Source: Shigella phage MK-13. From it: 64,000 bases of DNA. Shown here in pieces: positions 386-36,687 of the stretch. The DNA is taken from sequence record MK509462; one strand, 5' to 3'. A program made the translations under genes and the position numbers. The notes under the pieces were generated by a model. The model had not been told where the DNA came from. It was given only the letters and a program-made list of their open reading frames with translations, and did no database searches. Numbering within the stretch: position 1 is the stretch's first letter; each line of letters starts with the position of its first letter.

Positions 386-430
386 CTAATCGAGTAATAT
401 AACGCGCGAGGAAGATTCAATCCCATCCCG

Positions 431-438
431 CTAAATAT
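431..438 (+). promoter_or_regulatory. late-promoter-like motif CTAAATAT upstream of the gp6-like gene
   Basis: CTAAATA box about 40 nt upstream of ATG 478; resembles T4 late promoter TATAAATA; same box recurs upstream of other late genes. Confidence 0.4.
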
Positions 439-477
439 CTTCAACACCATATTCAAGTTCAGGTGATGGAGATAAAC

Positions 478-2259: not shown

Positions 2260-3094
2260 CGGACACAATGGGGTGAAATATGAAACCCCATTGTTCTACC
2301 AGAATGAATTCCCAGTGTTCATCGAGTTCATGGACACGTTCTTCAACTGGCTGTATCGCCAGCAGGGATTCACCGAAGAGGAGATTTTGGCGTATCTGGC
2401 AGACACTGATGGTTGGGTGAACCCAAATACGGATCAGTCTCCTATTGAGCAGCTGATTGACATCAAGAAGCGCAAGACACCAGGGACCGAGGCCAAGGAC
2501 TTCTTGGAAGACAAGTTCCTGACGCGCACGTTTGAGAACATGATGGCGCTAGACTTCGAAAATTTGCTGGATGTAGACGGTCGGCCATTAATCTCAATGG
2601 AAGACAAGAACGAACGCATCGACGATTGGTATGCTGATTTTGGATTCCAGAGAACGGTTGATAAGACCTTCCTGGAGTTTGGGAAGTTTGTGCCAGTTGG
2701 TTCGGACAGTTTGGTGACTTCAGACGGAGACACGCTCTCTGTGTATGTCGAGGGAACCAAACGCCGAACGCTGGACCATGTCCGCTGGTTGAAGTTGCTT
2801 AAACACATTTATCGCATTCGCGGGACGAAGAAAGCGATTGAATTGTTCTTCTGGATTTACTTTGGTTGCCCAGTGAGTGTGTACTATCCCAAGGAAGAAA
2901 TTGGTGGTTTGGACGATAACTTTGAATGTGACGGCGCGACAGGAATGCGTGACGATTACTACTATGATGAATTCACGTATGTGATAAGAGTTCCTGGCGA
3001 CGTATCTGATTTTGAAGGTGTGTTTGAGCGCGTCTTCCGTCAGCATTTCCATCCTGCTGGGTTTACTGTATTCCTGGAAAGTTCAAGGAGTTAA
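2240..3094 (+). CDS. baseplate-associated structural protein (possible P2 gpI / wedge partner)
   Basis: 284-aa ORF overlapping the gp6-like stop, GGAGGTG RBS; assigned by synteny directly downstream of gp6-like; no motif recognised. Confidence 0.4.
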   Translation: MSKDLNNGHNGVKYETPLFYQNEFPVFIEFMDTFFNWLYRQQGFTEEEILAYLADTDGWVNPNTDQSPIEQLIDIKKRKTPGTEAKDFLEDKFLTRTFENMMALDFENLLDVDGRPLISMEDKNERIDDWYADFGFQRTVDKTFLEFGKFVPVGSDSLVTSDGDTLSVYVEGTKRRTLDHVRWLKLLKHIYRIRGTKKAIELFFWIYFGCPVSVYYPKEEIGGLDDNFECDGATGMRDDYYYDEFTYVIRVPGDVSDFEGVFERVFRQHFHPAGFTVFLESSRS

Positions 3095-3096
3095 AA

Positions 3097-4308
3097 ATGG
3101 CCGATTTTCTGAGTCAATACACAGGTCAGCAGATTGATGCAATCCTTTCTTCTGTTGACGATAAAGTAAGCAAGAACGATGTTATCAACGATTTCGCTGT
3201 TGATGATCCGTTGTTTCCTCCTTCAGCTCATCTGACGTATGAACTGAAGCGTTCTGTGGATGACATCTACGACACGTTGGATAATAAGGTGATTCGCACC
3301 GACGGTGGGGAACAAACTATCAACGGGCGGAAGACTTTTGCCGCAGAAATCCGAGCCAATGCTGGTGTCAGTATCCCTACGGGGAAGAAACTTACCATCG
3401 CAGATGAGCCAGTTGATTCCACTGATGGCGTCAATCTGTCTATGCTGCGCAAGCACGGCGTGAGTGAAGACACTGCCGGGGTTAACTCTGGTCTGAAAAT
3501 CGAGTTGTTATCTGGCGGCTACAACAAACTCACTTTCGACGGCACAAATCTGGCCACTTACTCTGGTACTGGTGTGCCAACTACCATGTTACTGGTGAGT
3601 GGAACCGACACTGTCAAGTACGACACATCTGCGTTTGTGACTTCTATCTTCAATGATACGCGTTTCAACGCTTATCTGAAGGTTGTTGATTACGACGCCG
3701 ATATGTTGGATATCCAGTCTCAGTTCAATACTGTGAACACCACTCTGGCAGCGAAGGTCAACACATCGACTTACAACTCCAAGATGTCTAGCCTGGACAC
3801 CAGTATACTGGATCTGACGAACAACAAAGTGAACGTCAGTACGTATAACACGAAGATGGCGGCGTTGGACAGTTCCATCAGCGGCATTCAGAGTGATATC
3901 GGCACGATCAATACCACGTTGTCTGGAAAGGTCAACACATCGACCTACAACGCCAAAATGACAAGCCTGGACGCCGACATTGCTGCCCGTGTGAAGATCG
4001 GGAAGACCAACCCAAGCGGCATCACTGTCTCTGCTTCGGGGAACTCTGCGTTGCCCGACTTCGATTTGGTGAACCTTTGCCAAGTGTTGATCAGTGCACA
4101 ATGGGGTACAGGCAACGTCGTGGATACGTACCGCGTGACGATCACCCGTGACGGGACTATCAAGTCTGAGCTGTTGATTCAGAAGTCCACTTCCGGTACG
4201 GTGACATTCGCGGGTTCTGTAGTGTCTTCAAAACTTCGTTTGACGATAACAAATGCGAACACGACGACTGCGTGCTCTATTGATTATAGTCTGGTCGCTT
4301 CTTTCTAA
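3097..4308 (+). CDS. tail fibre-like protein with heptad/serial repeats
   Basis: 403 aa; N-terminus typical of phage fibre proteins (TINGRKTFA, DSTDGVNLSMLRK); internal repeats VNTSTYNSKMSSLD / VSTYNTKMAALD / VNTSTYNAKMTSLD. Confidence 0.55.
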   Translation: MADFLSQYTGQQIDAILSSVDDKVSKNDVINDFAVDDPLFPPSAHLTYELKRSVDDIYDTLDNKVIRTDGGEQTINGRKTFAAEIRANAGVSIPTGKKLTIADEPVDSTDGVNLSMLRKHGVSEDTAGVNSGLKIELLSGGYNKLTFDGTNLATYSGTGVPTTMLLVSGTDTVKYDTSAFVTSIFNDTRFNAYLKVVDYDADMLDIQSQFNTVNTTLAAKVNTSTYNSKMSSLDTSILDLTNNKVNVSTYNTKMAALDSSISGIQSDIGTINTTLSGKVNTSTYNAKMTSLDADIAARVKIGKTNPSGITVSASGNSALPDFDLVNLCQVLISAQWGTGNVVDTYRVTITRDGTIKSELLIQKSTSGTVTFAGSVVSSKLRLTITNANTTTACSIDYSLVASF

Positions 4309-4316
4309 AGTGAAAG

Positions 4317-4327
4317 CTAAATACCCC
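4317..4327 (+). promoter_or_regulatory. late-promoter-like motif CTAAATACCCC with 5'-UTR hairpin (ataccccta / taggggtat, 4321..4355)
   Basis: CTAAATAcccc followed by inverted repeat whose 3' arm supplies a GGGG Shine-Dalgarno 7 nt before ATG 4361. Confidence 0.45.
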
Positions 4328-4360
4328 TAGATGAAACGAACACATTTAGGGGTATTTGAA

Positions 4361-7255
4361 ATGGCTAATAAACCAACACAGCCTGTTTTCCCTCTCGGTC
4401 TGGTGGCTGAAGAGCAGTCTACTTTGGCTGGTATCCTCAACACGGGTACGATTGAGCATGGACCAGATGCTGTCCTGACTTTACCCGAGGGTAATGCCAG
4501 TGCAGGTCTCCCGTCTTCTGTTCGCTACAATGCCGACTCCGACGAATTTGAGGGCTTCTACGAAAATGGTGGATGGTTGCCGCTGGGTGGCGGTGGTATC
4601 CGCTGGGAAGCCCTTCCGCATGCCTCTACGGCAACGCTCACTGAAGGGCGAGGCTATCTGGTAGACAACTCCACAGGCGTCTCTACGGTGGTGTTCCCTT
4701 CCCCTACGCGCATTGGCGATTCTGTTACAGTCTGTGACTTGTATGGAAAGTTCTCCCTGTATCCCCTGACCATTGACCCAAATGGTCGCCCAATGTATGG
4801 CTCTGTAGAGCCTATGACGCTCTCCACCGACAGCGTATCTGCGACCTTTACCTGGTCTGGTGACGCGCGTGGCTGGATTGTGACTGCTGGCGTCGGCCTT
4901 GGGCAGGGGCGCGTGTATAGCCGCACGATCTTCACTGAAACCGTTTCGGTAGACACCGCTCAAGTTACTCTGACAACGCAGCCGTCGATTGTTGATGTGT
5001 ATGTTGACGGCAAGCGCCTGCTGGAATCAAAGTATTCCCTCAATGGTTTCAATGTCGACTTCAGTCCATCAATCCCATCAGGTTCCGAGCTGCAGGTCAT
5101 CCAATACGTCCCGATCCAGTTAGGCAATGGCTCCGGTGGTTCCGGCGGCGGTACGGTTATCACTTGGATCTACAATAGTGGATCAGCTGCGGGTGGTGAA
5201 ACCGAGATCGAGTTGGACGTGGATGCCGAAGATGTTTCTGAGATCTTTATCGATGGATCCCGCCAGCAAAAAGGTCTGGGCTTCACTTATGACTCCGTTA
5301 CGAAGATCATCACGCTGGCCGACGAACTCGAAGCTGGTGATGAAGTTGTTGTCGTCATCAATGGCGACCCAACCCTGTACAATCAGATCGACCGTACACC
5401 AAACGAAGTGGCGCGTTCCGTGAACGTGCCGAATTCTCAGGTTATTTTGTCGTCCGATACCATCACCAAACTGGACGGAAAGACGGTTATCTATGATGTG
5501 GTGGCGCAAAAGATTTGGAGCTTACCTTCTGGTATCCCGACAGGTTCTTCTGTTGTATCTGTGAGTGGGAGCACTCTGACATATGCACCAGGGAATGTTG
5601 TTGTTTCTTTGCTCTTGCCGACTTCTGAAAGTTTGGTCGTTTTCCAAGAATTATTAGAGTCTAATGCGGGGGTTGGGTCTATTGGTGGCGTTGCTGTGGA
5701 ATTAGGAGACCGAAACTCGCTAAACTCGAACCAGACCGTGCTCGGGCGTATTGTGGCCAGCAAAACTCTTTCTGGTATTTACAACAAATATTCAGTTGTT
5801 CCCAACACAGGTAAAGTTGCTGACGGTGTGGTATTAATTGACCGCCTGGACGGTAATCAACTTGAAATTCAATTTGAAGACTATATTGATGTTCGCGCTT
5901 TCATGTTCGGCGCAATGACAGATCAGGAAACATTACAGGCAGCATTGGATTATGCGGATAGTGTTTCCGGACATTGCGTAATTGGCATCACACCCAAAAA
6001 CAAAAATGGAGACCCTTGGGTGTTCACGCATCTGCATATTGGTTCTAAAACTATTGTTAAGGGTGCAGGCGGCTGGTTGAAATTCGCAGATAATGTTTGT
6101 AATGATGCGACCAAAGCATATTATCTTGTCGAGAACTTTGATGCACAGGATACCCATTTAATAGATTTGTATATAGACGGAAACCAAGCAAGCAACACAT
6201 TGTATGCTGTAGCCGACATCTTAACGTTCGGTGGGAATCGATGCTCTATCACCAACTGTAAGCTCGTGAATGCCCCCGACTCAGGTCTGATGTTTGCGAC
6301 TACCAAAAACTGCTGGGTGAATGGTCTTTATGTAGAAAACACGCGCGACCTTGGGATCTACTTATCTGCAAGTGTGGCAGGCGGTACTCGTAACTGCGCA
6401 ATGTCCAACCTGGTGTTGCGCGACTGCGCTCAAGGGGCTATGGGTTTCAAACGCTACGTTGCCGACATTGTTGTGGATAATGTTGTAGCCACCAACTGTG
6501 GTAATGGAATCACCTTTGAAGGTTTTGAAGTTGTGACGCCGGGTATGAACCCATCCAATATCACTATGAGCAATATACGTCTGCGTGATATTGGATTTGG
6601 TTATCGGTCTGTTTCAGCGGCAGAGCGAGCTTTAAGTTTCGATTATGCTCGCGGCATCCGTATTAGCAACCTCAGCGTTCAGAACTGTTCTGGTGTCGGT
6701 ATCTTCTTCAGCACTAACACAAGTACTGGTATTTACATTAATGGCGCTAACTTAACTGGATATGCTGCTAACCCACAAATCGCGAGTGGTGTCCCAAACA
6801 ACGATGGTATTCAGTGTAATGGTGCTTCTGGTTTTGAACTGATTAATGTGAACTTGGAAGGGTTCGCAAGATACGCAGCTTGGTTCCTGAGCTGTAGTGG
6901 CGGCAGCGTGGTCGGTGGTCGTTGGACTAATACCCAGGCTAGTGGATATAATGCATACAACGGCGCACGTGTAAATGCAGCCTGTAGTTTCACTAAGTTT
7001 TCGCCTGAGTTTATTAGTGGGGCGAGCGGAACAGACCTAGAATGGTTTAATGGTGCGACTGGAATTACCAAAGACACGATACTGAACAATGCTACTGGCC
7101 CAGCAAAATATGGGTATGTTGTCGTCTCTGGTCCTACGCCTGTGGCTACAGTAACCCCCCGTTTTATTGGGCAGGAAGTCTGGAGTGCAGGTGCGAGTTC
7201 CTGGTGGAAATCACATGGCTTAACCTCCTCAGACTGGAAACAGATGTCAAATTGA
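4361..7255 (+). CDS. tailspike protein A (gp10-like N-terminal region plus right-handed beta-helix depolymerase-like domain)
   Basis: ORF 4331..7255; start moved to ATG 4361 downstream of promoter/hairpin. C-terminal half shows serial N-C-x-G / asparagine-ladder repeats (NCKLVNAPDSG, NCAMSNLVLRDCAQG, NCGNGITFEG, NCSGVGIFF) typical of pectate-lyase-fold tailspikes. Confidence 0.65.
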   Translation: MANKPTQPVFPLGLVAEEQSTLAGILNTGTIEHGPDAVLTLPEGNASAGLPSSVRYNADSDEFEGFYENGGWLPLGGGGIRWEALPHASTATLTEGRGYLVDNSTGVSTVVFPSPTRIGDSVTVCDLYGKFSLYPLTIDPNGRPMYGSVEPMTLSTDSVSATFTWSGDARGWIVTAGVGLGQGRVYSRTIFTETVSVDTAQVTLTTQPSIVDVYVDGKRLLESKYSLNGFNVDFSPSIPSGSELQVIQYVPIQLGNGSGGSGGGTVITWIYNSGSAAGGETEIELDVDAEDVSEIFIDGSRQQKGLGFTYDSVTKIITLADELEAGDEVVVVINGDPTLYNQIDRTPNEVARSVNVPNSQVILSSDTITKLDGKTVIYDVVAQKIWSLPSGIPTGSSVVSVSGSTLTYAPGNVVVSLLLPTSESLVVFQELLESNAGVGSIGGVAVELGDRNSLNSNQTVLGRIVASKTLSGIYNKYSVVPNTGKVADGVVLIDRLDGNQLEIQFEDYIDVRAFMFGAMTDQETLQAALDYADSVSGHCVIGITPKNKNGDPWVFTHLHIGSKTIVKGAGGWLKFADNVCNDATKAYYLVENFDAQDTHLIDLYIDGNQASNTLYAVADILTFGGNRCSITNCKLVNAPDSGLMFATTKNCWVNGLYVENTRDLGIYLSASVAGGTRNCAMSNLVLRDCAQGAMGFKRYVADIVVDNVVATNCGNGITFEGFEVVTPGMNPSNITMSNIRLRDIGFGYRSVSAAERALSFDYARGIRISNLSVQNCSGVGIFFSTNTSTGIYINGANLTGYAANPQIASGVPNNDGIQCNGASGFELINVNLEGFARYAAWFLSCSGGSVVGGRWTNTQASGYNAYNGARVNAACSFTKFSPEFISGASGTDLEWFNGATGITKDTILNNATGPAKYGYVVVSGPTPVATVTPRFIGQEVWSAGASSWWKSHGLTSSDWKQMSN

Positions 7256-7295
7256 TCCGATTCTGTCTAGAGATGTCTAGCAACTTCTATCGATA

Positions 7296-7313
7296 AAGCC
7301 CCTTCAGGGGCTT
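7296..7313 (+). terminator. hairpin aagcccc-ttca-ggggctt (weak terminator, no clear U-tract)
   Basis: Perfect 7-bp GC-rich stem between tailspike A and B. Confidence 0.35.
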
Positions 7314-7336
7314 CGTGAGAACAACAGGAGATTCAC

Positions 7337-9439
7337 ATGAATCCGCAATTCAATCAGCCGAAAGGTTCAACGGCCAAAGAAATCAACAAAAACCCGCGTG
7401 AATTATGGCGTCGGACTTTGTCGGAATTGGGTCTTAATTTGGTCGAAGGTAGTTTTGAAGACGGTGCTACTGTGGCGACTGCAACTGACGTCGTGTGGCA
7501 TATCAATGGCGCCCAGTGTTACACCTGGGGTGGGTCTTTACCCAAGACTGTAGACAAAAACTCAACACCGCAATCAACTGGTGGGATATCCGGAGAAGCT
7601 TGGAAGAAATACGATGAAACTTCTCAGGTTACGACACCAGGATACTATGGCGGAACTTGTTTCCCCACGGAAAATAATCTCTCCTTGGCCGTCGGGGATA
7701 TTATCCCGTCAGGAGTAATGTTCGTCAGAATTGATGGTAATCTGATGATGATGAGTTCTTCTCTGACGGAACCCGTGACTGTCACCAGTTTTGATCAGAC
7801 TGTGATCAATGGCTTGCATGAGTTGTATCCAGTATCATTCTTTAACGAAGTGATCACGGGATGGAAGATTGCCCAGAATGACGCACAGCTTACGCGTTTA
7901 CTCCCAAAGGCAGGGAATATTTACATTGGTTATTCTCCAGTGAAAGTTGAAGGAATCTTCATTATTCAGGGAGATATCCGACTCAAGCCATTGCTGCCAA
8001 AAGTAACCGTTGATTCACGTCAGTTCTGGTTGAGATCGCCGCGCGCCTGGAACGAAACAAACCAGGAATATGACTACACCGCGTACGATATTCGTATTGT
8101 CGGTAACTTCCTGTTTGACTTCTATAGGCAAGATGCTTCCTTTGACCCAGGCGTTGGACTAGCTATGCAGTCCGCTGGAACTCTGGAGCTTTCCGGGTGT
8201 GAGTTACAAGGTGCGTGGAGAAGCAACGTAACCATGGATTATGGGCGCTGGTCTATTGCAGACAACTTGTATTCACATGATTGTGGCAGGGGGCAGATTC
8301 AAAATCCAGATGGTAGCAACCGCAATGGTATGGCTATTATTGTTGGTAATGCGACAGAAGCACATATCCATCATATCCGCACCAGAACCACTTGGGCATC
8401 CTCTGTCTTTGTTGATTCTTACCGCCCTGGACGAACGCTTAACGTGATGATCCATGACGTTAGTATTAACGGTTCTGGTGGTAACGGCCTGCGCCTTCAA
8501 TCTGACGATCTTGTTACCGGTGTTGGCGGCGGGCAGGGTACTGCAATTACTCGTGTAAACATCAGCGGCGTAACAATTAAAAACTGTGAATCGCATGGCA
8601 TCCGCGCAAACTTCACCAACGGAAGCGTTACGGGCGTATACATTGAGTCATGTAACGCGGGTATTGCCATTGAGGGTTCTAGTGATGTCACGTATGACAA
8701 CATCACCATCAGGAATTGCTCACAGCCAATCCTCTGTCGATATTATCCGGTAGTCTGCACACGCCTGCGATTTAGTAATATCTTAATATCAGGCCACACA
8801 GATTGGGCTGTGTTCTTTTTGCGTAAGGATGGCTCCTCTCACACGGTAAATCTAGGTGATATTGAATTCGACGGGTTGACAATCCACTGCACACAACCTG
8901 GTTCTAAAGCTGTTATGATTAACTGCGGGTCGAACGCAACAGCTACTTCCGACATCACTATGAAGAACGTGCGTATTGTTGGCGCATTTCCTGATACAGA
9001 CGGAACAGCACTCTGTCAGATTCATAATGCACGACATATTGAAGTAGATAACTGGAACATCAGAGGTGTTAACGGGCTTCCTAGTTCTTATTTGTATGCG
9101 CAAGCATCTCAGAGCTTGAACGTGCATCGCCTGGTTGGCGTTCAACCGTTTGGTACTGTTGATCGTCCTATTGAGTGCGTTGGCGTGGCTGGTCACGTAA
9201 ACATTGTGAATTGTTCTGTTCCTGTAACCACGAACGGAATATTATATACTTCAACTCCTGCATCCCGTTACGAAGAAGGGAACCAGTTTTACAATAGCGC
9301 TCAACCACAACAATTCCCGTTCACCAACGCTGGGCAGTTGCGTGGTGGTGATGTGAACACGTTAACAACCACGCAACTGGCAAACATAGTGGCTACGCTG
9401 ATTAACGATATTAGCCTGGGTAAATTCGTAATCAGATAA
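7337..9439 (+). CDS. tailspike protein B (conserved MNPQFNQPKGS N-terminal head-binding module plus beta-helix)
   Basis: 700 aa; N-terminus MNPQFNQPKGS...YTWGGSLPK shared with tailspike D; beta-helix repeats (VNISGVTIKNCESHGIRAN, YIESCNAGIAIEG, ITIRNCSQP). Confidence 0.7.
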   Translation: MNPQFNQPKGSTAKEINKNPRELWRRTLSELGLNLVEGSFEDGATVATATDVVWHINGAQCYTWGGSLPKTVDKNSTPQSTGGISGEAWKKYDETSQVTTPGYYGGTCFPTENNLSLAVGDIIPSGVMFVRIDGNLMMMSSSLTEPVTVTSFDQTVINGLHELYPVSFFNEVITGWKIAQNDAQLTRLLPKAGNIYIGYSPVKVEGIFIIQGDIRLKPLLPKVTVDSRQFWLRSPRAWNETNQEYDYTAYDIRIVGNFLFDFYRQDASFDPGVGLAMQSAGTLELSGCELQGAWRSNVTMDYGRWSIADNLYSHDCGRGQIQNPDGSNRNGMAIIVGNATEAHIHHIRTRTTWASSVFVDSYRPGRTLNVMIHDVSINGSGGNGLRLQSDDLVTGVGGGQGTAITRVNISGVTIKNCESHGIRANFTNGSVTGVYIESCNAGIAIEGSSDVTYDNITIRNCSQPILCRYYPVVCTRLRFSNILISGHTDWAVFFLRKDGSSHTVNLGDIEFDGLTIHCTQPGSKAVMINCGSNATATSDITMKNVRIVGAFPDTDGTALCQIHNARHIEVDNWNIRGVNGLPSSYLYAQASQSLNVHRLVGVQPFGTVDRPIECVGVAGHVNIVNCSVPVTTNGILYTSTPASRYEEGNQFYNSAQPQQFPFTNAGQLRGGDVNTLTTTQLANIVATLINDISLGKFVIR

Positions 9440-9473
9440 ATAAGGGTCGCAGGATTAACCCCTTATCCATTCA

Positions 9474-9484
9474 CTAAATACCCC
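9474..9484 (+). promoter_or_regulatory. late-promoter-like motif CTAAATACCCC with 5'-UTR hairpin (ataccccata / tatggggtat, 9478..9510)
   Basis: Same architecture as at 4317; GGGG of 3' arm 8 nt before ATG 9517. Confidence 0.45.
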
Positions 9485-9516
9485 ATATTGGCAAATCCTC
9501 TATGGGGTATCTTCAA

Positions 9517-12297
9517 ATGTCTAGAAACGTCGAGAGCATCTTTGGAGCGGTTGTAACAGCCCCGCACCAGATTCCATACACTTACACCGCAACGGGTGGA
9601 GAGACGTTTATCTCCCTCCCGTTCTACCCTGTTACAGGCTTCATCACCATCAATGGTGGGGTTCAGGTTCCTGTCGACAACTATGAAATTGATGGTAACA
9701 CTGTGAACCTCGGTCGAGCGCTAGAGGCTGATGATGTAGTGTACTGTCTGTTCGACAAGATCCTGTCCCCAGAAGATTATGAAAACGGGATCCGAATCTA
9801 CAAGTTCCAGGCCGTTGGCAACGAGACCTCATTCACCCCAGACTTCACGACGTATGGTGTGCAATCCCTGTATATCGATGGGAAGTTCCAGGTTCCTGGG
9901 GTTGACTACAATTACAACAGCGCAACTGGTGTGGTGTCATTCCTGAATGGATCTCCGACTGCTGGTGTTTGGGTTGTGGCTGAGATGTCTGTGAAGCAAA
10001 ACTATCTGGCTCTGTCTTCGGAGGGTGGTGCCAGTTTGGTAGGCACGACTTCTGGCAGCACTGTGCAGGAAGAGTTGAACGATGTTGCTGGGCAGCTAGC
10101 CAATTTAGAAGATGATCTTTCTACATTGAAAATTGCAGTGGCCAGTGTTTCCTTTACTCAATTTGGGGCAGTTGGTGACGGCGTGGCTAACGACACGCAC
10201 GCCGTAAAACTGGCGTTCGATTATGCTCTTGCTAATAACGTTGCAGTCGAGCAGCATAGCGGTGTTTTCTTGCTGGATGGCACTGAATACATTGATATCA
10301 GAAACCTGCAAACCGACCTCACCGGATGCGTCCTTAAGCCATCCGCATCATGGACTGGTCAGATTGTGATTTCTCAGACTGGCGCGCCTGTCACTTACGG
10401 TTCTAGTTCTGATGTCGTGACAAAACTTAATACTAACAGTCCAGCCAGCCGCGCCGTTGGAAGTACGATAATGAGCGGGATCGCAACTGATAGCACTTTG
10501 GATGGATGCTACGTCAAAATATCGACTTCTCAGCCAATGTTCGTATTCAGGGACGCTACTTACACAAGGAAAGACCTGAACAGAGTTTATAACCGAGGCA
10601 ACATAGAGAACCCGTTACGCTATGGCCTAGGAACGAATGTTACAGAAGTTATTGCGCTGAAAATTCGCAAAGACGTGCAGACTGTTAAAGGGCTTACTAT
10701 TGATGAAAGCCTGTCGAAAAACTATCGCATTGTGTACATCAACAACGCATCACGCGTTAAGCTTGTCAACACGTCTTTCATCAATGCCCCGATAACGCAG
10801 GATTTCAGTGATACCAGAATTGATATTGCAGGCTCATATGACGTGGAAATTGACGGCCTGTTCACACCGTCTGTGGTCGATTCGTTCAACGGCACTGGTG
10901 ACATCTACTCGTATTCTCTGGGTATAAGCGAGAGCATGAATGTCAGAGTGAAGCATATGACTGCTAACGGTGAAGGATGGGGCGCGACCGGTAGCAACAA
11001 CAGCGCAAACATTACTTTCGAAGAATGCGACTTGAGCAGGATTGACTTTCATATGCCTTTCCAGGGATATTTGCGTGTCAATAAATGCAATGTTGGACGA
11101 TACGGTGTAGTTGTAACTGGCATTGGTGACCTAATCATTGATGATGTCATCTTTAATGGTTCAACTGACCAGCTGGGTTCAATTATCGCCACTCGTCCTG
11201 ACTGCGGCGGGTTCTTCGATGGTGACCTGTATATGTCAAATGTGACTATCGCTGGTCGCCGTTCCGGTCAGATTTCGGCACTAATCCAGGGACCTGCTGA
11301 TGCTGGGCAGGGACCAGCATCAGGATCGCCCATCAACAGCACTCTTTTCAATAAAGTTGTTATTCGCGACCTAAAACTGAAAGACGGATTCTTTGAGCAG
11401 ACTTTTGCCACGCTACTGTATTCCCAGCGTGATTCACAACTACTGTTCCCAAAAGTGGTCGATATTGACGGGCTAAGTTTTGGGGCGCTGCCAAAATCAT
11501 CTGGGGTTGGCCTGAATATCGACTTCTCGCGATTTAAAGCGCTGTTCTCTGATATGACAAACTCAGAGCATCCAGTAACAGGAAGAAAAACGACCGATAT
11601 TATTTTACGTAATATTCAAACACCATATCTGTCGGTAACAGCGGCATCAGCGCGTCATAACCCCTCTATTGTCGCAAGTAACGTGCGTCATGTGATAAGT
11701 GGCGAAGTAGATACGCTGCTGGAGATTAACCAGCGTGGCAGATATTTGTTAGATTCATGCTCACTTGAGCAGTTGAAGCTTTTTTATGGTTCGAACCCCA
11801 ATGGCCTGGTAAGTCTCACAATGCGTGGCGGCAGACTTCAGCAGCCTGTTGCAGCAACCATGCCTATTTCTGGTGAAACCACGCACAGCGTCACCCTAGA
11901 TGGAACGGATATTGTGTGCCAGTTCAACGGGCAAGACTCAACATACCCGATCACCAAAGCAATCATTGCCAGGGCGCTTGTTAAAGACTGTAGATATTGG
12001 GATGTTTCTGGCGCAAGACTAAACAATTTGAGTTTCGTTAAGCCTGAAAGCACTAGCACCACTATAACTGTGACTATGAAGGTTGGTCAAAAATTAGCAG
12101 TGTCTACCGGATACACAGCAGGCAATACTTACACAAGAAGCAACTTTACCGCGTTGTGGGAGTCAGGTGCCAAGCAAGTAGCAAGCATTGGCGCGGCAGG
12201 CAACGTGATTGTCACATATACGGTATCAGGTGATTCGGTTTCACAGATAGTAATGACAAGTCCAGCAAGTAATGAGATCCGCGACGTGTCAATTTAA
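9517..12297 (+). CDS. tailspike protein C (extended N-terminal assembly domains plus beta-helix)
   Basis: ORF 9502..12297, start moved to ATG 9517 after hairpin; large N-terminal region without the MNPQF module; repeats such as NVRVKHMTANGEG, ECDLSRIDFH, VNKCNVGRYGVVV. Confidence 0.65.
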   Translation: MSRNVESIFGAVVTAPHQIPYTYTATGGETFISLPFYPVTGFITINGGVQVPVDNYEIDGNTVNLGRALEADDVVYCLFDKILSPEDYENGIRIYKFQAVGNETSFTPDFTTYGVQSLYIDGKFQVPGVDYNYNSATGVVSFLNGSPTAGVWVVAEMSVKQNYLALSSEGGASLVGTTSGSTVQEELNDVAGQLANLEDDLSTLKIAVASVSFTQFGAVGDGVANDTHAVKLAFDYALANNVAVEQHSGVFLLDGTEYIDIRNLQTDLTGCVLKPSASWTGQIVISQTGAPVTYGSSSDVVTKLNTNSPASRAVGSTIMSGIATDSTLDGCYVKISTSQPMFVFRDATYTRKDLNRVYNRGNIENPLRYGLGTNVTEVIALKIRKDVQTVKGLTIDESLSKNYRIVYINNASRVKLVNTSFINAPITQDFSDTRIDIAGSYDVEIDGLFTPSVVDSFNGTGDIYSYSLGISESMNVRVKHMTANGEGWGATGSNNSANITFEECDLSRIDFHMPFQGYLRVNKCNVGRYGVVVTGIGDLIIDDVIFNGSTDQLGSIIATRPDCGGFFDGDLYMSNVTIAGRRSGQISALIQGPADAGQGPASGSPINSTLFNKVVIRDLKLKDGFFEQTFATLLYSQRDSQLLFPKVVDIDGLSFGALPKSSGVGLNIDFSRFKALFSDMTNSEHPVTGRKTTDIILRNIQTPYLSVTAASARHNPSIVASNVRHVISGEVDTLLEINQRGRYLLDSCSLEQLKLFYGSNPNGLVSLTMRGGRLQQPVAATMPISGETTHSVTLDGTDIVCQFNGQDSTYPITKAIIARALVKDCRYWDVSGARLNNLSFVKPESTSTTITVTMKVGQKLAVSTGYTAGNTYTRSNFTALWESGAKQVASIGAAGNVIVTYTVSGDSVSQIVMTSPASNEIRDVSI

Positions 12298-12304
12298 AGT
12301 GCTT

Positions 12305-12324
12305 AAGCCCCTTCGGGGGCTTTC
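12305..12324 (+). terminator. hairpin aagcccc-ttcg-ggggctt followed by TTTCC
   Basis: GC stem with tetraloop right after stop of tailspike C. Confidence 0.45.
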
Positions 12325-12458
12325 CAATGAGGAACTACACCACCAGTCAACACTAGACATTCTCGAAATTAGACTTCTTGGCGTTTAAACCCAAAATGCA
12401 GAAGAAACGAGTATTATTTGAATTCAATAAACATGACTAAAACAACAGGAGATTCTTT

Positions 12459-14243
12459 ATGAATCCGCAATTTTCACAGCCGAAAGGCTCTGTCTCCAAA
12501 GAGACAAACAAGGACTCCATTGCTCGCAAGTTTGGGTGCAAGAAGTCTGAGGTTCTCTATGCTAAACCAGGTGCTGTCCTGACAGGATACAAGGTGATCT
12601 ACGATAAGGTCACTCAGCGCTCCTATGCACTGCCTTCTAACCTGCCCGCTGGCGCTACCATCACCAGCCTGACAGACGGCATTCTCGTGCACAATACGGG
12701 TACTGTCGATCTGGGTGTTCTCGCAGTGCTTCGGAAGGAATTTGTAACTTTGATCGAAAACTTCGACTCAGGGTTCACAATTCGTGTTAGAAATGAAGTC
12801 GTTTCTGATGGTACAAATCTTTACCGTTGGGGTGGGACTTTACCCAAATCTGTAAACGCTGGTGGCACCATTGCCAATACTGGTGGATTGTCAAGTTCTA
12901 ACTGGGTGAAATTGGATCCAGATGCATTGAGAGATGAGTTATACTCTGGGTTTTATCGTCTAACTGTTATCGACCCTTCGATGTCTCAGTCTCTTATACA
13001 AACTAAATTATCCCAGGGTGGGACATTCCAGTTTCTTCCTGGCAACTATACGGTAACTGGCCAGGCGTTGGCGTTTTATCCTAACTCTGAAATTTATGCG
13101 CATTCCGGCGCTTTATTCTTGGCTGGCGAAAACAACGTTGGTGTACTCACGATTGACCCTTCTCGTTCTGGTGGAAATGCAGTGAGAAACTGCAAATTAC
13201 ACAATATCAGGATATCATTGAATGGTAAAACGGGTTGCGTCGCTTTCAGAGCCAAATATTGGAGGAACCATGGTCATCTAGATATGATGTGGGTAGACAT
13301 GGGGACAGCCATTAATAACGTCGGGATAGAGATAGGGACTTTGTGTTATGGATTGAAGATAGACGGTTGTGAGGTTATCGGTGGTGGGGCTGGTTCGAGT
13401 CGGTTAATAGTACAGAACGGAGCCAATGCTATCGTTATAACAGGATTTGATGGTTATTCCGGTGCTCCGGAAGTGGATATGCCGGATTATGGTATTATCG
13501 TAAGACACTCTACCGACGGCGGGACTTCTTGGGATTATACCACAACATTCCCCACAGAAGCAGTCTGTTTTGTTAACGGATTCAGCCAGAATACCACGAA
13601 GTATGGTTTCTTGGATCAGGCCAAGGGAACTAAGGTGTATGGAATGTATTATGAGAACAATAGTATCTCTGATGTCCGCATCAGTGGTTCTCAAGATGCC
13701 ACATTCCGAGATTGTACACACTCTTCCCCAAGCCAAGGAACCCTCGCGCATGGGTATAGTATAACCAACTCCACCAACAGCTTAATTGATGAGCCGATAT
13801 GGGGAACAAGGGCTGGAGGTTTCTTCGACATTGGTGGTGCACAAGACGCCGGTGTGACTGGCCACATAGTCAACATCGCACGTTGGGGCGCAAGTCGAGG
13901 CATTGATGATCTCGGCGTTGTAACGGCATGTAAATTAAGTCGTGGAAAATTGCCATTACAGCTCACAACTGACTCTGTCGACATAAACAGCGGTTATGGG
14001 TGCTATCGAAGAAACGTTTCTTCTGGTTCCAACATCGCATTTACTGGTACGCCATATGATGGTATGGAGCTGACGTTTTTACTGAGAGGTTCAAACATTG
14101 CTTCATTGAGCATAGCGGGTGTCCCTGTCGATGTGACTGGTGCCAACACCGCCACCACGAAAATGAATCTCGTGAAAATGGTGTATTCAAAAGTAACGAG
14201 CACATGGGTGATCAATGCTGGTCAATGGAATGCTTCCGCTTGA
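12459..14243 (+). CDS. tailspike protein D (MNPQFSQPKGS N-terminal module plus beta-helix)
   Basis: 594 aa; N-terminus MNPQFSQPKGSVSKETNKDSIARKFG...YRWGGTLPK; the 5' UTR and first codons are nearly identical at nucleotide level to tailspike B (aacaacaggagattc...ATGAATCCGCAATT...CAGCCGAAAGG). Confidence 0.7.
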   Translation: MNPQFSQPKGSVSKETNKDSIARKFGCKKSEVLYAKPGAVLTGYKVIYDKVTQRSYALPSNLPAGATITSLTDGILVHNTGTVDLGVLAVLRKEFVTLIENFDSGFTIRVRNEVVSDGTNLYRWGGTLPKSVNAGGTIANTGGLSSSNWVKLDPDALRDELYSGFYRLTVIDPSMSQSLIQTKLSQGGTFQFLPGNYTVTGQALAFYPNSEIYAHSGALFLAGENNVGVLTIDPSRSGGNAVRNCKLHNIRISLNGKTGCVAFRAKYWRNHGHLDMMWVDMGTAINNVGIEIGTLCYGLKIDGCEVIGGGAGSSRLIVQNGANAIVITGFDGYSGAPEVDMPDYGIIVRHSTDGGTSWDYTTTFPTEAVCFVNGFSQNTTKYGFLDQAKGTKVYGMYYENNSISDVRISGSQDATFRDCTHSSPSQGTLAHGYSITNSTNSLIDEPIWGTRAGGFFDIGGAQDAGVTGHIVNIARWGASRGIDDLGVVTACKLSRGKLPLQLTTDSVDINSGYGCYRRNVSSGSNIAFTGTPYDGMELTFLLRGSNIASLSIAGVPVDVTGANTATTKMNLVKMVYSKVTSTWVINAGQWNASA

Positions 14244-14248
14244 TAGAC

Positions 14249-14280
14249 AAAGCCCCTCAGATGAGGGGCTTTTTCTTTCT
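14249..14280 (+). terminator. rho-independent terminator (aaagcccctc-agat-gaggggcttt + TTTTCTTTCT)
   Basis: 10-bp stem, 4-nt loop, U-tract; lies inside the ORF-track N-terminal extension of the next ORF, which is therefore not coding. Confidence 0.7.
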
Positions 14281-14300
14281 ATTCCTCGGTTGGCTGTATA

Positions 14301-14307
14301 CTAAATA
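14301..14307 (+). promoter_or_regulatory. late-promoter-like motif CTAAATA
   Basis: About 35 nt upstream of ATG 14342, downstream of terminator. Confidence 0.4.
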
Positions 14308-14341
14308 TCTCTATAATGGCACCTATCGATGGAGCATCAAA

Positions 14342-17300
14342 ATGCAAGAAATGAACCTCAACCGCCGCCCATACTGGGATGATTGGAATCCAGAGAAGCG
14401 TTTTTCACGCATCCTGTTCCGTCCGGCTCCTATCAAAGTTCAGACCCGTGAACTGAACCAGATGCAGACCATCTTCCAGGATCAGCTGGAGAAACTCGGG
14501 AACCATCTGTTCAAAGACGGTTCGATGGTTATCCCCGGCGGCCTGACAATCACCAACACCGCAGTGTCCATGAAGTTCACTCTGGCTGGTGGTAGCGAGT
14601 TCACCGATCTGGAAGGTATCTCCGAACTCTATGTTCTGGGTAAGGACAACAATGCGAAAGCGCGCGTCCTGTCTCTGGAACGTTACCTGGCTGAGCCGGA
14701 TACAATGTACGCCATCTTAGAGATGACTGAGAGTGGTAGTTCAGACGGTTTCGAAGCTGGTGACAACCTGTACTTCAACACCTACGACGTGAACGATAAC
14801 TTCATCCGTGTCGGCTATGGTGTGGCTGCTACTGTCGGTGGCTCTATTGTTGCGCGCATGACCAAAGGCGTTTACTTTGTCCGCGGTATGTTCCTGGATG
14901 TTGAGGCTGCTACCCTGATCGTCGACAACGCATCCAACTCCACCTCACACCGGGTGGGCTTCAAAGTAACAGAGACCATCGTCACCGAAACCGAAGACGA
15001 AAGTCTGTTCTCCAATGCTCAGGGTACTCCGAACTCCAAAGCCCCTGGTGCGCATCGCCTGCGCATCGACCTCGTGTTGTCTCGCTACGGTTATGATGAA
15101 GAAGTGGCCGACTTCGTAGAGCTGGCGAAAGTCAAAGACGGGCGCATTCAGTCCATGGTGACCCAGTCCACCTACAACATCCTCGAAGACAGTATGGCGC
15201 AGCGCACTTATGAGACCAACGGGGATTACAACGTCTCCACTCATCAGATCGACCTGCGTGAACATCTGAAACAGAACAACAACGGCGGCGTTTATACTCC
15301 TGCCGAAGGTGGTGACGAAAGCAAATTCGTGGCGGTTATGAAGCCAGGCATTTCCTACGTTCGTGGCCGTCGTATCGAAAACCTCGGCGAAGAACTGGTC
15401 ACAATCGACAAAGCCCGTGACACTGATATCTTGAACAACAACCCTGTGGCTGTTGCGACTGGCAACTATCTGGTGTCCAAGAACTCCAAAGGGGTTCCGG
15501 TTGTCTCTCGCACAATCCGTTACAAGTTCCTGAACGCATCCAGCGCTGTCCAGGCCACTGCCCTCCTGATTTCAGCAGAACGTTCTGGGGCGGAATTCCG
15601 TCTGTATATGCGCGACCTGGTTGTGACTGGGGACATGGGTACTGTCACGAAGGTTGCATACGAAGAAAGCGGCACAACGATGTTCTCTTGCGAACTGGAG
15701 TCTAATCAGTTCAGCCAGAGTTCGGCGATTGACCTGATCTTCCCTCTGCCTGTATTTGGCGTGAAGACCCTGGCTCCTACTGGCAACATTGATATCAACT
15801 ACACCGTCCTGCGGTCAAACAAGATCACGTTGAACGCCGCTGGTGCAGGCTCAATCTCTGCTCCTCTGGGTTACAGCTTCAGCCCTGAATTCTCTTTGTA
15901 CTCAGCGGCGAAGGCAGACGGCACTGCAGCTCAGTTTGATATCTCTTCGGGACTGTCCCTGACTGGTACTCCGGTCGGTTCAGCACTGCAGATTTCCCTG
16001 GGCGCGGGGTACGCCAACCAGTCTATCAACCTGTTGGCACTGATGGTCCGCACCACAGCGACGATCAAGACCAAGACTGTTACCGAAGTCACCGAGACTG
16101 TGACGTTCACTTCGGCGGCCAGCGTACAGCTGAACAACCACGACGGTTACAAGCTGGTCAGCGTGAAGAACGCAAATGGCGCTGACGTCACCTCTAACTT
16201 CACTCTGGACGGCGGCCAGCGTGATGCTGCATACTATCGTTCTAACCTGTTATCGGGCACTGGAGCCATTTCAGGGACGTTCACGGTGGTGTATCAGTAT
16301 TTCGCTCACAGCTCTGGTGATTTCTTCACAGCGGATTCCTATTCTTCCATCGATTACCCAGACATCCCGAACTATGTTTCGTCCAGTTCTGGTACTGTGT
16401 ATGGCCTGGCAGACTGCCTGGACTTCCGTCCTAAGATCACCAGCGGTGCTTCCGACACTGATATGGTTCGCCCGAACACTGCTATCGTCCTCGATGCGGA
16501 GTACTATCTGCCTCGTATTGATGCTGTGTATCTGGCCGACAACGGCGTGTTTAACGTTGCGCGTGGTGTGAGTTCCAACAACCTGGCTTCGCCTGCGATC
16601 CCCGACAACGGCATGCGTCTGTACGAATTGATGATCCCGCCTTACACGGCCAACATCGACGATATTCAGATTCGTACCATCGACAACCGTCGTTACACGA
16701 TGCGTGATATCGGTAAACTGGAGACCCGTATCTCCAATGTTGAATACTACACCTCACTGTCACAGCTGGAATCTTCAGCTATGACTCAGCAGGTGTTCGA
16801 CCCGATCACTGGCAACCCGCGCTTCAAAAACGGTATCGCTGCCGACCCGTTCAAAGACTTCCGTCTGATCGACGATTTGTCTGCTGACTGGGTAGGTTCA
16901 ATCGACACTGACAATGGTCGCCTACGCCCGTTCGTTCAGCAGAATGCGGTTGACCTGACGCCAGTGGGCTGGAACAACGTTCAGGATGGCATGGTTGTAT
17001 GCAACTACACCCGTGAGATCTCTGTGCGCCAGGATTATGCGACCACGACCATCAACGTGAACCCATATGCGGTATTCAACTGGGAAGGTTTCCTGAAGCT
17101 GAACCCGACCACCGACTACTGGTTCGAGAACTACTATGTTGCTCCACGTGTGATCAACGAAACGATCAACACACGCGGCGCGATCAAAGAAGGTTCCGTG
17201 TATGGCACATGGCGTACTGTGTCTGTGTCTGAGCGTGTGTGGGAACCACATGGCGCAGGCGGCGTATGGTGGGGCTACCGCTACCGCACGACTGTGTCTA

Positions 17301-20783: not shown

Positions 20784-20812
20784 GAGTTATTCCTCAAAAG
20801 AATAAACTTCGA

Positions 20813-20820
20813 CTAAATAC
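20813..20820 (+). promoter_or_regulatory. late-promoter-like motif CTAAATAC
   Basis: About 30 nt upstream of ATG 20843, followed by imperfect ataccttcaa/ttgagggtat repeat supplying GAGGG RBS. Confidence 0.4.
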
Positions 20821-20842
20821 CTTCAAAATTGAGGGTATCGAT

Positions 20843-36649: not shown

Positions 36650-36653
36650 TCAC

Positions 36654-36665
36654 CTAAATACCCCC
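36654..36665 (+). promoter_or_regulatory. late-promoter-like motif CTAAATACCCCC with 5'-UTR hairpin (36658..36682)
   Basis: CTAAATAccccc then ataccccca / tgggggtat inverted repeat before ATG 36688. Confidence 0.45.
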
Positions 36666-36687
36666 ATCATCCATGGGGGTATTTTCT

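What the first reader, a model, noticed from the sequence alone, without database searches (positions are those of the whole stretch)
4361..14243. Four consecutive tailspike genes with exchangeable modules
Four large ORFs in a row carry right-handed beta-helix (pectate-lyase-like) repeat patterns in their C-terminal parts with no obvious similarity between their catalytic regions. Tailspikes B (7337) and D (12459) share a near-identical 5' UTR and first about 20 codons (aacaacaggagattc...ATGAATCCGCAATT...CAGCCGAAAGG; protein MNPQF[NS]QPKGS), whereas A and C have long different N-terminal assembly regions. This is the branched multi-tailspike layout known from ViI-like phages, and the conserved 5' ends are likely recombination handles for swapping receptor-binding domains. 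The four enzymes probably target four different polysaccharide receptors.
Basis: partly seen in the sequence, partly recalled or inferred. Interest (0 to 1): 0.6.

Follow-up and report, generated by a model that had tools for sequence, protein, structure and literature searches.

The report
Known four-tailspike cluster of phage MK-13
This is the already published four-tailspike gene cluster (TSP4-TSP3-TSP2-TSP1) of Shigella phage MK-13, a ViI-like (Ackermannviridae, Agtrevirus) phage; the layout and its swappable receptor-binding modules are textbook for this family, so the finding is correct but ordinary.

Summary
Four consecutive + strand genes (4361-7255, 7337-9439, 9517-12297, 12459-14243) encode proteins identical to QBJ04330-QBJ04333 of Shigella phage MK-13. 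They are TSP4, TSP3, TSP2 and TSP1 of the Ackermannviridae branched tailspike complex.

- **N-termini:** they match the solved CBA120 assembly domains.
- **C-terminal domains:** the four are unrelated in sequence. All are beta-helix, or probably so (firm for TSP4 and TSP2, by homologues for TSP3, moderate model for TSP1).
- **Module exchange:** it is visible against relatives and was already published (Sorensen 2021, 2023, 2024).

The shared 5' end of TSP3 and TSP1 is real but short: 15 of 16 nt around the ribosome-binding site, then 19 codons (14/19 aa, 74% nt). Synonymous sites there are near saturation (pS 0.70, pN/pS 0.25). Conservation is therefore at the peptide level, not a DNA "handle".

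This N-peptide is the only element common to all three TSP3 head types I compared, while the partner TSP2 N-terminus is 86-97% identical. My inference is that it is an assembly or docking peptide. Recombination junctions do fall at these conserved modules.

Side observations: late-promoter motifs embedded in hairpins before TSP4 and TSP2, and a fossil TSP3 3' end in phage Ag3.

Novelty: already known. Interest: low.

The parts
4318..4355 (+). Leader of TSP4. The family motif CTAAATAcCcc (4317-4327, putative late promoter element) overlaps the 5' arm of the hairpin ATACCCCTA...TAGGGGTAT. The 3' arm is the purine-rich stretch just before the ATG at 4361.
   Evidence: dG -21.3, z -6.7. Conserved in 5 other phages. 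Motif named in PMC7283392.
4361..7255 (+). TSP4 (964 aa, identical to QBJ04330.1). Residues 1-338 are the baseplate anchor plus XD1-XD2-XD3, and TD1 is about 348-434. Homology to relatives ends at nt 5604-5611 (aa 415). Beta-helix receptor-binding domain from about 5605 to the end.
   Evidence: 7REJ, E 4.7e-150; Beta_helix, residues 616-720; domain 99.4% identical to ChubbyThor.
7289..7310 (+). GC-rich hairpin (GCCCCTTCAGGGGC) after TSP4 without a T-run. Probably an attenuator or RNA-stability element rather than a full terminator.
7319..7334 (+). Shine-Dalgarno leader gAACAACAGGAGATTC of TSP3, shared with TSP1.
7337..9439 (+). TSP3 (700 aa, identical to QBJ04331.1). It has the N-peptide (aa 1-19), then a helix plus a TD2-type domain (aa 20-95; Pfam Tail_spike_N at 37-91), with no TD1. 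The receptor-binding domain is of the G7C gp66 type.
   Evidence: 84% nt identity to G7C gp66.
9475..9510 (+). Leader of TSP2. CTAAATACCCC motif overlapping the hairpin ATACCCCAT...ATGGGGTAT. The ATG at 9502 lies in the 3' arm and is not the start.
   Evidence: dG -16.3, z -4.8..
9517..12297 (+). TSP2 (926 aa, identical to QBJ04332.1). XD2-XD3 N-terminus (aa 1 to about 170), 96.6% identical to Det7 TSP2. Homology to relatives ends at nt 9998-10072. Beta-helix receptor-binding domain.
   Evidence: 6W4Q, E 4e-73; 8X8M, E 1e-39.
12306..12325 (+). GC-rich hairpin (AAGCCCCTTCGGGGGCTT) after TSP2, followed by a 130-nt spacer not shared with relatives.
12440..12455 (+). Shine-Dalgarno leader AAACAACAGGAGATTC of TSP1. 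Homology to four of the five relatives compared (Ag3, EspM4VN, RC-2014, Det7) begins at or within 10 nt upstream of this leader.
12459..14243 (+). TSP1 (594 aa, identical to QBJ04333.1). N-peptide (1-19), then the TD1-TD2 head (20 to about 155). Receptor-binding domain, probably beta-helix, at least 99.3% identical to those of the S. boydii phages Ag3 and ChubbyThor.
14249..14272 (+). Strong intrinsic terminator (10-bp stem plus T-run) closing the cluster. A further CTAAATATC motif at 14301 precedes the vriC-like gene (14342-19180).

Best explanation
The region is the tailspike cluster of Shigella phage MK-13 (Agtrevirus, Ackermannviridae), transcribed in the order TSP4, TSP3, TSP2, TSP1.

Assembly, by homology with the solved and biochemically dissected CBA120 proteins:
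- TSP4 anchors to the baseplate and carries gp10-like XD domains.
- TSP2 docks on TSP4 through XD2.
- The short spikes TSP1 and TSP3 dock through their N-terminal heads on XD3 of TSP4 and of TSP2:TSP4.
- Each spike ends in a different beta-helix domain that binds, and probably cleaves, a different surface polysaccharide.

Mosaicism: the conserved assembly modules have 48-53% GC. The receptor-binding modules have 46-47% GC and were acquired horizontally. Their relatives sit on P22-type, N4-type and other N-termini in E. coli and Enterobacter prophages and phages.

The element shared by TSP3 and TSP1 has two functional parts. One is a strong ribosome-binding leader. The other is an 18-19-residue N-terminal peptide kept by purifying selection.

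Inferred, not shown:
- This peptide contributes to docking or assembly of the short spikes, as the conserved N-terminal peptide of the second receptor-binding protein does in KP32-type Klebsiella podophages.
- Recombination junctions fall at these conserved blocks as a by-product of their conservation.
- There are two late transcription units, TSP4-TSP3 and TSP2-TSP1, each headed by a CTAAATAcCcc motif.
For: Identity:
- All four proteins are exact matches to MK-13 entries.
- The backbone is 98.3% identical to Ag3.

Roles:
- TSP4-N matches 7REJ at E 4.7e-150.
- TSP2-N matches 6W4Q at E 4e-73.
- The TSP1 head matches 4OJ5, 6NW9 and 4QNL.
- Tail_spike_N is present in TSP3 and TSP1.
- Assembly rules come from PMC8825819 and PMC11414711.

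Beta-helix.

Mosaic borders and module moves:
- Breakpoints against relatives.
- GC content by module.
- Homologues carrying other N-termini.
- A 3' fossil in Ag3.

Peptide-level constraint:
- pS 0.70 and pN/pS 0.25 in codons 2-19.
- F5, Q7, G10, N17 and K18 are at least 90% conserved in 84 unique heads.
- The peptide is retained on three different TSP3 head types: peptide+TD2, peptide+TD1, and peptide+TD1+TD2.
- TSP2(1-175) stays 86-97% identical across these phages.
- Outside Agtrevirus-type phages, only residues from 16-19 onward of the TSP3 head have matches.

Precedent: a docking peptide in KP32-type phages (PMC13352976).

Leaders, hairpins and terminator.
Against: - CBA120 TSP1(14-166), which lacks the first 13 residues, still bound TSP4-N335 in vitro, and the authors state that the role of those residues is unknown (PMC8825819). 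The peptide is therefore not essential for TSP1 binding there.
- The first 10 codons are also almost invariant at the DNA level within Aglimvirinae, so an RNA-level or translation-initiation constraint cannot be separated from a peptide constraint for that stretch.
- The beta-helix call for TSP1 rests on a model of pLDDT 66. For TSP3 it rests on homologues, not on the protein itself.
- Enzymatic activity and receptors of all four spikes are untested. Only one host serotype is known for MK-13.
- The transcription-unit model is read from motifs only.
Confidence: 0.85

Rival explanations
1. The shared 5' UTR and first ~20 codons of TSP3 and TSP1 are kept as DNA handles so that homologous recombination can swap receptor-binding domains between the two genes or between phages.
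For: - Homology with Ag3, EspM4VN, RC-2014 and Det7 starts at or within 10 nt upstream of the TSP1 leader (12430-12441). Homology with fGh-Ecl02 starts exactly at the TSP3 ATG.
- Leaders and coding N-termini are themselves recombined: fGh-Ecl02 and Det7 TSP3 carry the promoter hairpin instead of the SD leader.
- The literature proposes conserved 5' regions as substrates for tsp exchange and has shown it experimentally with longer homologies (PMC8432352, PMC11414711).
Against: - Between B and D the exact runs are only 15, 14 and 11 nt, with 74% identity over 57 nt. This is poor substrate for homologous recombination.
- Synonymous sites are near saturation while the amino acids are kept. The same residues are conserved in distant phage families with different DNA.
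- A swap at codon 19 would also move or delete the head domains.
- The published hot spot is at the end of TD1, or at TD2, not at the start codon (PMC8432352). In this window, too, the receptor-binding-domain borders lie at aa 85-186, or aa 415 in TSP4.
Confidence: 0.2
2. The shared block is essentially a translation-initiation region. An optimised Shine-Dalgarno leader plus early codons would be kept to give the two short spikes high and matched expression, and the peptide itself would have no role.
For: - The non-coding 15-16 nt are more conserved than the synonymous sites downstream.
- Codons 2-4 and 7-9 are invariant at the DNA level within Aglimvirinae.
- Residues 1-13 are disordered in the crystal structure (PMC8825819) and below pLDDT 50 in the model.
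- TSP1(14-166) still binds TSP4-N (PMC8825819).
Against: - Det7 TSP3 keeps QFNQP[R/K]GST with different codons and a different leader.
- G7C-type gp63.1 proteins keep F, Q, G, S, N and K at the same places with unrelated DNA.
- Conservation extends to N17 and K18, beyond the usual reach of initiation-region effects.
Confidence: 0.25
3. The B/D similarity is a recent duplication or gene conversion between the two genes within this phage lineage.
For: The two genes are paralogues with the same leader and start.
Against: - pS is 0.70 between them.
- Each is far closer to its orthologue in other genera than to its paralogue: TSP1 against Det7 TSP1 gives pS 0.18, and TSP3 is identical in Ag3 and fGh-Ecl02 over the first 19 residues.
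- The same TSP3/TSP1 pair of leaders is present in Ag3 and EspM4VN.
Confidence: 0.03

Closest known systems
CBA120 (Kuttervirus) TSP1-TSP4 branched receptor-binding complex (Plattner 2019; Chao 2022, PMC8825819)
   Same: - Same gene order between baseplate genes and vriC.
- The TSP4 N-terminus (anchor, XD1-3) and the TSP2 N-terminus (XD2-3) are clear homologues.
- TSP1 has the D1/D2 (TD1/TD2) head.
- Receptor-binding domains are beta-helix.
   Different: - All four receptor-binding domains are different.
- TSP3 here lacks TD1: it is the N-peptide joined directly to helix+TD2.
- TSP3 has an SD leader instead of the promoter hairpin seen in Det7, another Kuttervirus. CBA120 itself was not examined.
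Agtrevirus tsp clusters, e.g. Ag3 and AV101 (PMC10791037, PMC8432352)
   Same: - Same genus-level backbone, 98.3% identical to Ag3.
- Same N-terminal modules, including the TD1-less TSP3 head.
- TSP1 is 97.5% identical in DNA to that of Ag3.
- 'Unique receptor-binding domains per phage' is already described for the genus.
   Different: - The TSP4, TSP3 and TSP2 receptor-binding domains differ from Ag3.
- The TSP4 domain is shared with ChubbyThor.
- TSP3 as a whole is shared with fGh-Ecl02.
G7C (N4-like podovirus) gp66/gp63.1 two-spike complex
   Same: - TSP3 residues 20-700 correspond to gp66 residues about 375-1063. DNA identity is 84% over the last 1.8 kb.
- gp63.1 has the same N-peptide + TD1 + TD2 head type as TSP1.
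   Different: - In G7C this receptor-binding domain sits on the long, XD-bearing primary spike. Here it sits on a short secondary spike.
- Different virion type.
KP32-type Klebsiella podophage RBP1 branching domain / RBP2 conserved N-terminal docking peptide (PMC13352976, PMC6872550)
   Same: - A short conserved N-terminal peptide on the secondary spike.
- A partner spike carrying T4 gp10-like domains.
- The peptide tolerates very different domains downstream.
   Different: - No sequence relationship was tested or claimed.
- In Ackermannviridae the published docking element is the TD1/TD2 head, not the peptide.
- The role of the peptide here is an inference.

Membership tests
Ackermannviridae branched TSP1-4 complex | tsp genes clustered between the baseplate wedge genes and vriC in an Ackermannviridae genome | tested here: met
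   - gp6-like and two further genes lie upstream; a DUF4815/VriC-like gene lies downstream.
- The backbone is 98.3% identical to Ag3.
- The proteins are identical to those of MK-13.
Ackermannviridae branched TSP1-4 complex | TSP4 with an N-terminal anchor domain plus XD1-XD2-XD3 (gp10-like) | tested here: met
   Residues 1-338 match CBA120 TSP4-N335 (7REJ) at E 4.7e-150.
Ackermannviridae branched TSP1-4 complex | TSP2 with an N-terminal XD2-XD3 | tested here: met
   - ORF residues 6-170, i.e. TSP2 aa 1-165 counted from the start at 9517, match CBA120 TSP2 (6W4Q) at E 4e-73.
- 96.6% identical to Det7 TSP2 over 175 aa.
Ackermannviridae branched TSP1-4 complex | TSP1 with a TD1+TD2 head | tested here: met
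   - Residues 1-163 match 4OJ5, 6NW9 and 4QNL at E 1e-41 to 1e-46.
- Pfam Tail_spike_N at 96-151.
- The head is modelled at pLDDT 81-90.
Ackermannviridae branched TSP1-4 complex | TSP3 with a TD1+TD2 head, as in CBA120 and Det7 | tested here: not met
   - TD2 only: Tail_spike_N at 37-91. The ~75 aa of TD1 are absent.
- The same is true of Ag3 TSP3.
- This is the genus-typical variant and does not exclude the gene from being TSP3: position, N-peptide and orthology with Ag3 orf212 all hold.
Ackermannviridae branched TSP1-4 complex | C-terminal right-handed beta-helix receptor-binding domain in each spike | tested here: inconclusive
   - Met for TSP4 (Pfam).
- Met for TSP2 (model pLDDT 84, TM 0.84 to 8X8M).
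- TSP3 only through homologues: 7 of 25 hit Beta_helix, and its own hits are sub-threshold.
- TSP1 has a model of pLDDT 66 with beta-helix hits of low TM.
Ackermannviridae branched TSP1-4 complex | Physical assembly of the four trimers into one branched complex on the baseplate | not testable with these tools
   Inferred from homology of the assembly domains. Virion morphology of MK-13 is reported as very similar to Ag3 (PMC6853846).
Ackermannviridae branched TSP1-4 complex | Each spike recognises or cleaves a distinct polysaccharide | not testable with these tools
   - Only S. boydii type 1 is a documented host (PMC6853846).
- The TSP1 domain is shared at 99.3% or more by the three S. boydii phages MK-13, Ag3 and ChubbyThor. 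That makes it the best candidate for that host; this is an inference.
Docking-peptide secondary spikes (KP32 RBP2 type) | Short conserved N-terminal peptide on the secondary spike, independent of the downstream domains | tested here: met
   - The peptide is present on three different TSP3 head types and on TSP1 and gp63.1-type heads.
- There is a module border at residue ~19.
Docking-peptide secondary spikes (KP32 RBP2 type) | Partner spike carries a T4 gp10-like branching domain | tested here: met
   XD domains of TSP4 and TSP2 (PMC8825819).
Docking-peptide secondary spikes (KP32 RBP2 type) | Deleting the peptide abolishes binding or incorporation | not testable with these tools
   The only related datum argues against strict necessity for TSP1: CBA120 TSP1(14-166) still binds TSP4-N335 (PMC8825819).

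The most novel reading that the evidence does not exclude
The 18-19-residue N-terminal peptide (MNPQF[NS]QPKGS..K..NK) may be the universal plug that docks the short spikes onto the XD3 domains of TSP2 and TSP4, rather than the TD1 head domain being that plug. It would also do so in gp63.1/gp66-type podovirus complexes.

If so, it would explain why Agtrevirus TSP3 can lose TD1, and why EspM4VN TSP3 can lose TD2, while using an almost unchanged TSP2 platform. It would also give a minimal tag for grafting any receptor-binding domain onto Ackermannviridae phages.
Probability: 0.35. Interest if true: 0.45.

Novelty: already known. Interest (0 to 1): 0.18.

Why it matters
The cluster determines which bacteria the phage can infect, and its modular build is what makes Ackermannviridae attractive for host-range engineering and diagnostics. 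MK-13 itself was proposed as a diagnostic for S. boydii type 1. All of this is already published for the family and genus, and this very genome is deposited.

What the present analysis adds is small:
- a comparative argument that the short N-terminal peptide is the constant element of TSP3 heads, rather than TD1, and hence a candidate docking tag;
- a candidate spike (TSP1) for the S. boydii host;
- the observation that three of the four spikes of a phage regarded as mono-specific have close relatives in E. coli and Enterobacter prophages, so its true host range is probably wider than tested.

Tried and rejected
- **PDB code search:** searching the literature for 8X8M gave only unrelated papers. 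The entry was identified later through Foldseek.
- **Profile searches against PDB:** profiles of the TSP3 and TSP1 families found only the N-terminal head domains, nothing for the receptor-binding domains.
- **Relaxed Pfam on the receptor-binding domains:** only sub-threshold hits for TSP3 and TSP1, and none for TSP2.
- **Contig look-up:** The look-up of encoding contigs found no contig for TSP2. Identity was settled by the exact cluster look-up.
- **Promoters:** the sigma-70 promoter scan was at chance level, 21 found against 20.9 expected. There is no TATAAATA in the first 20 kb.
- **Tandem repeats:** none in 3000-14400.
- **Longer ORF starts rejected:** 4331 lies in the loop of the leader hairpin, 9502 lies in its 3' arm, and 14204 overlaps TSP1 and sits before the terminator and promoter motif. 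The deposited proteins and the homologue alignments start at 4361 and 9517.
- **Recent gene conversion between B and D:** rejected on pS 0.70.
- **Moo19/B2 cryo-EM paper:** it does not describe how the N-terminus of the gp63.1-like spike contacts its partner.
Full report
**1. What is there**

The window carries four consecutive + strand ORFs. Exact look-up shows that their products are the deposited proteins of Shigella phage MK-13 (MK509462):
- QBJ04330.1, 964 aa, start 4361
- QBJ04331.1, 700 aa
- QBJ04332.1, 926 aa, start 9517 rather than 9502
- QBJ04333.1, 594 aa

The rest of the window is 98.3% identical to Shigella phage Ag3 and Salmonella phage P46FS4, both Agtrevirus, Ackermannviridae. 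The tailspike region itself is only 42% covered by Ag3. [quoted passage not shown] That paper gives almost no analysis of these genes (PMC6853846).

**2. Identity of the four genes**

- **A (TSP4).** Residues 1-338 match the crystal structure of the CBA120 TSP4 anchor/XD1-XD3 fragment (7REJ, E 4.7e-150).
- **C (TSP2).** The N-terminus matches CBA120 TSP2 (6W4Q, E 4e-73). It is 96.6% identical to Det7 TSP2 over 175 residues.
- **D (TSP1).** Residues 1-163 match the heads of CBA120 TSP1 and TSP3 and of G7C gp63.1.
- **B (TSP3).** It is the orthologue of Ag3 orf212. It has a Tail_spike_N (TD2) domain at 37-91.

The order TSP4-TSP3-TSP2-TSP1, between three baseplate-side genes and a DUF4815 vriC-like gene, is the family's defining layout (PMC11721090).

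**3. Receptor-binding domains**

BLASTP finds no significant similarity among the four C-terminal parts.
- **TSP4:** Pfam Beta_helix above threshold.
- **TSP2:** the model has pLDDT 84 and pTM 0.83. It superposes on the Klebsiella K64 tailspike K64-ORF41 (8X8M, TM 0.84). More distant matches are the HK620, Sf6, LKA1 and phi297 spikes.
- **TSP3:** no hit above threshold. However, 7 of 25 homologues match Beta_helix, and its domain is that of G7C gp66, with 84% DNA identity over 1.8 kb.
- **TSP1:** the model is only moderate (pLDDT 66). Its well-predicted part, residues 170-330, is a run of short strands. Foldseek returns CBA120 spikes and beta-helix enzymes such as AlgE4 and GH87, with low TM.

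The evidence is firm for two spikes and indirect for the other two.

**4. Module exchange**

Homology with relatives ends at sharp borders:
- nt 5604-5611 in TSP4 (aa 415, end of TD1) against four phages
- nt 7590 in TSP3 (aa 85)
- nt 9998-10072 in TSP2 (aa 161-186)
- nt 12743-12862 in TSP1 (aa 95-135)

The N-terminal modules have 48-53% GC and the four receptor-binding modules 46.0-46.7%, against 51% for the genome.

The same receptor-binding domains occur on other N-termini. These include P22-type head-binding domains in E. coli prophages, gp66-type spikes of N4-like phages, and Enterobacter prophage proteins. The TSP2 domain here is the TSP1 domain of fGh-Ecl02, at 70% aa identity.

Downstream of its own TSP3 stop, Ag3 carries about 95 nt nearly identical to the 3' end of the gp66-type TSP3 of this window. 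This is a fossil of a replaced cassette.

All of this agrees with published analyses (PMC8432352, PMC10791037) and engineering work (PMC11414711).

**5. The shared 5' end of TSP3 and TSP1**

The non-coding identity is 15 of 16 nt around AGGAG. Further upstream there is none. The first 19 residues are 14/19 identical. After that, TSP3 jumps straight to a helix and a TD2 domain, while TSP1 has a 75-residue TD1 first.

In codons 2-19 the two genes differ at 70% of synonymous sites but only 17% of non-synonymous sites (pN/pS 0.25). Each is much closer to its orthologue in other genera than to its paralogue. Over 84 distinct heads of this type, F5, Q7, G10, N17 and K18 are at least 90% conserved, as much as the TD1 core. 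The set includes heads of the gp63.1 type, as in the podovirus G7C. So the block is an old, functionally constrained element: a ribosome-binding leader plus an N-terminal peptide. It is neither a recent conversion tract nor a DNA handle.

Three TSP3 head types exist:
- peptide+TD2 in this phage, Ag3, fGh-Ecl02, Gloob, P46FS4 and SKML-39
- peptide+TD1 without TD2 in EspM4VN
- peptide+TD1+TD2 in Det7

The partner TSP2 N-terminus is 86-97% identical in all of them. The peptide is the only constant. Outside Agtrevirus-type phages, database matches to the TSP3 head begin at residue 16-19, so residue ~19 is a module border.

I therefore infer that the peptide takes part in docking or assembly. The analogy is the conserved N-terminal peptide of the second receptor-binding protein of KP32-type podophages, which binds a gp10-like branching domain (PMC13352976).

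The main counter-evidence is that CBA120 TSP1 lacking its first 13 residues still binds TSP4-N335. The authors left the role of those residues open (PMC8825819). The residues are disordered in the crystal structure and in my model.

**6. Recombination**

Junctions do coincide with these blocks:
- Homology with Ag3, EspM4VN, RC-2014 and Det7 begins at or within 10 nt upstream of the TSP1 leader (12430-12441).
- Homology with fGh-Ecl02 begins at the TSP3 ATG, with a different leader upstream.

This is what one expects when unrelated cassettes are exchanged between conserved flanks. It supports 'conserved modules serve as crossover sites'. It does not support 'they are conserved in order to be handles'. 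It also does not support exchange between B and D through their 11-15-nt runs.

**7. Expression signals (inferred)**

TSP4 and TSP2 are each preceded by the family motif CTAAATAcCcc (PMC7283392). The motif sits in a hairpin found only at these two places in the window. TSP3 and TSP1 have no such motif, only the SD leader. GC-rich hairpins without T-runs follow TSP4 and TSP2. A strong terminator follows TSP1. The simplest reading is two late units, TSP4-TSP3 and TSP2-TSP1.

**8. Verdict**

Both the system and this genome are already known. The 'recombination handle' explanation of the shared 5' end is the weakest part. A translation leader plus an assembly peptide under purifying selection explains the data better. 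Interest is low. The only mildly new lead is the peptide-as-docking-element argument.

Noticed in passing
window 430-480, 4316-4366, 9473-9522, 20812-20860, 36653-36703 (also 14302, 39836): There are seven + strand CTAAATA[CT]C motifs, each 25-45 nt before a gene start. In five of them the 3' half of the motif is the 5' arm of a hairpin whose 3' arm is the purine-rich SD-like stretch before the ATG; z-scores reach -6.7. The TSP4 and TSP2 hairpins differ by two compensatory pair swaps. If the motif is a T4-type late promoter, late transcripts would start inside the 5' arm and free the SD, while read-through transcripts would sequester it. That design is known for T4 genes e, soc and 49 (own knowledge). 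I did not find it described for Ackermannviridae.
   Followed up: partly
L001 (Ag3) 8216-8310 versus window 9345-9439: The intergenic region after Ag3's TSP3 holds about 95 nt nearly identical to the 3' end, stop codon included, of the gp66-type TSP3 of this window and of fGh-Ecl02. It is a fossil showing that Ag3's present TSP3 receptor-binding domain replaced a gp66-type one, with the right-hand junction inside the old gene.
   Followed up: yes
L003 (EspM4VN) 7437-9233; L005 (Det7) 5806-7932; window 7337-7630: TSP3 heads come in three builds: peptide+TD2, peptide+TSP4-like TD1 without TD2, and peptide+TD1+TD2. The partner TSP2 N-terminus is almost invariant across them. The Agtrevirus papers read here do not spell this out.
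   Followed up: partly
window 3097-4308: A 403-aa protein lies just upstream of TSP4 (phrog_3838, function unknown; annotated 'putative tail fiber' in some relatives). It has three copies of a VNTSTYN.KM..LD motif and an internal 66-nt repeat spaced 174 nt apart. It is possibly a coiled-coil fibre or baseplate 'prong' component.
   Followed up: no
window 14204-19180: The mechanical ORF start at 14204 overlaps TSP1 and is spurious. A strong terminator (14249-14272) and a CTAAATATC motif (14301) lie in between. The vriC-like gene (DUF4815, about 1612 aa) most likely starts at 14342.
   Followed up: partly
window 12863-14243 and 5605-7255: The TSP1 receptor-binding domain is at least 99.3% identical in the three S. 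boydii phages MK-13, Ag3 and ChubbyThor. The TSP4 domain is shared only with ChubbyThor, and its C-terminal half is 87% identical to the 39-kb Escherichia phage ZH4. TSP1 is therefore the best candidate for the S. boydii type 1 receptor. The other three spikes suggest untested E. coli or Enterobacter hosts.
   Followed up: partly
window 5605-7255, 7591-9439, 10056-12297, 12863-14243: All four receptor-binding modules have 46.0-46.7% GC, against 48-53% for the N-terminal modules and 51% for the rest of the window. This compositional mark is consistent with import from elsewhere.
   Followed up: yes
L002 (fGh-Ecl02) 10080-10119: In fGh-Ecl02 (and Det7) the TSP3 gene is preceded by an exact copy of the TSP2 promoter hairpin instead of the SD leader, although the fGh-Ecl02 TSP3 coding sequence is the same as here. 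Leaders and coding N-termini are thus separately exchangeable. This record is filed under Kuttervirus in GenBank, although its tsp region and flanks resemble Agtrevirus.
   Followed up: partly
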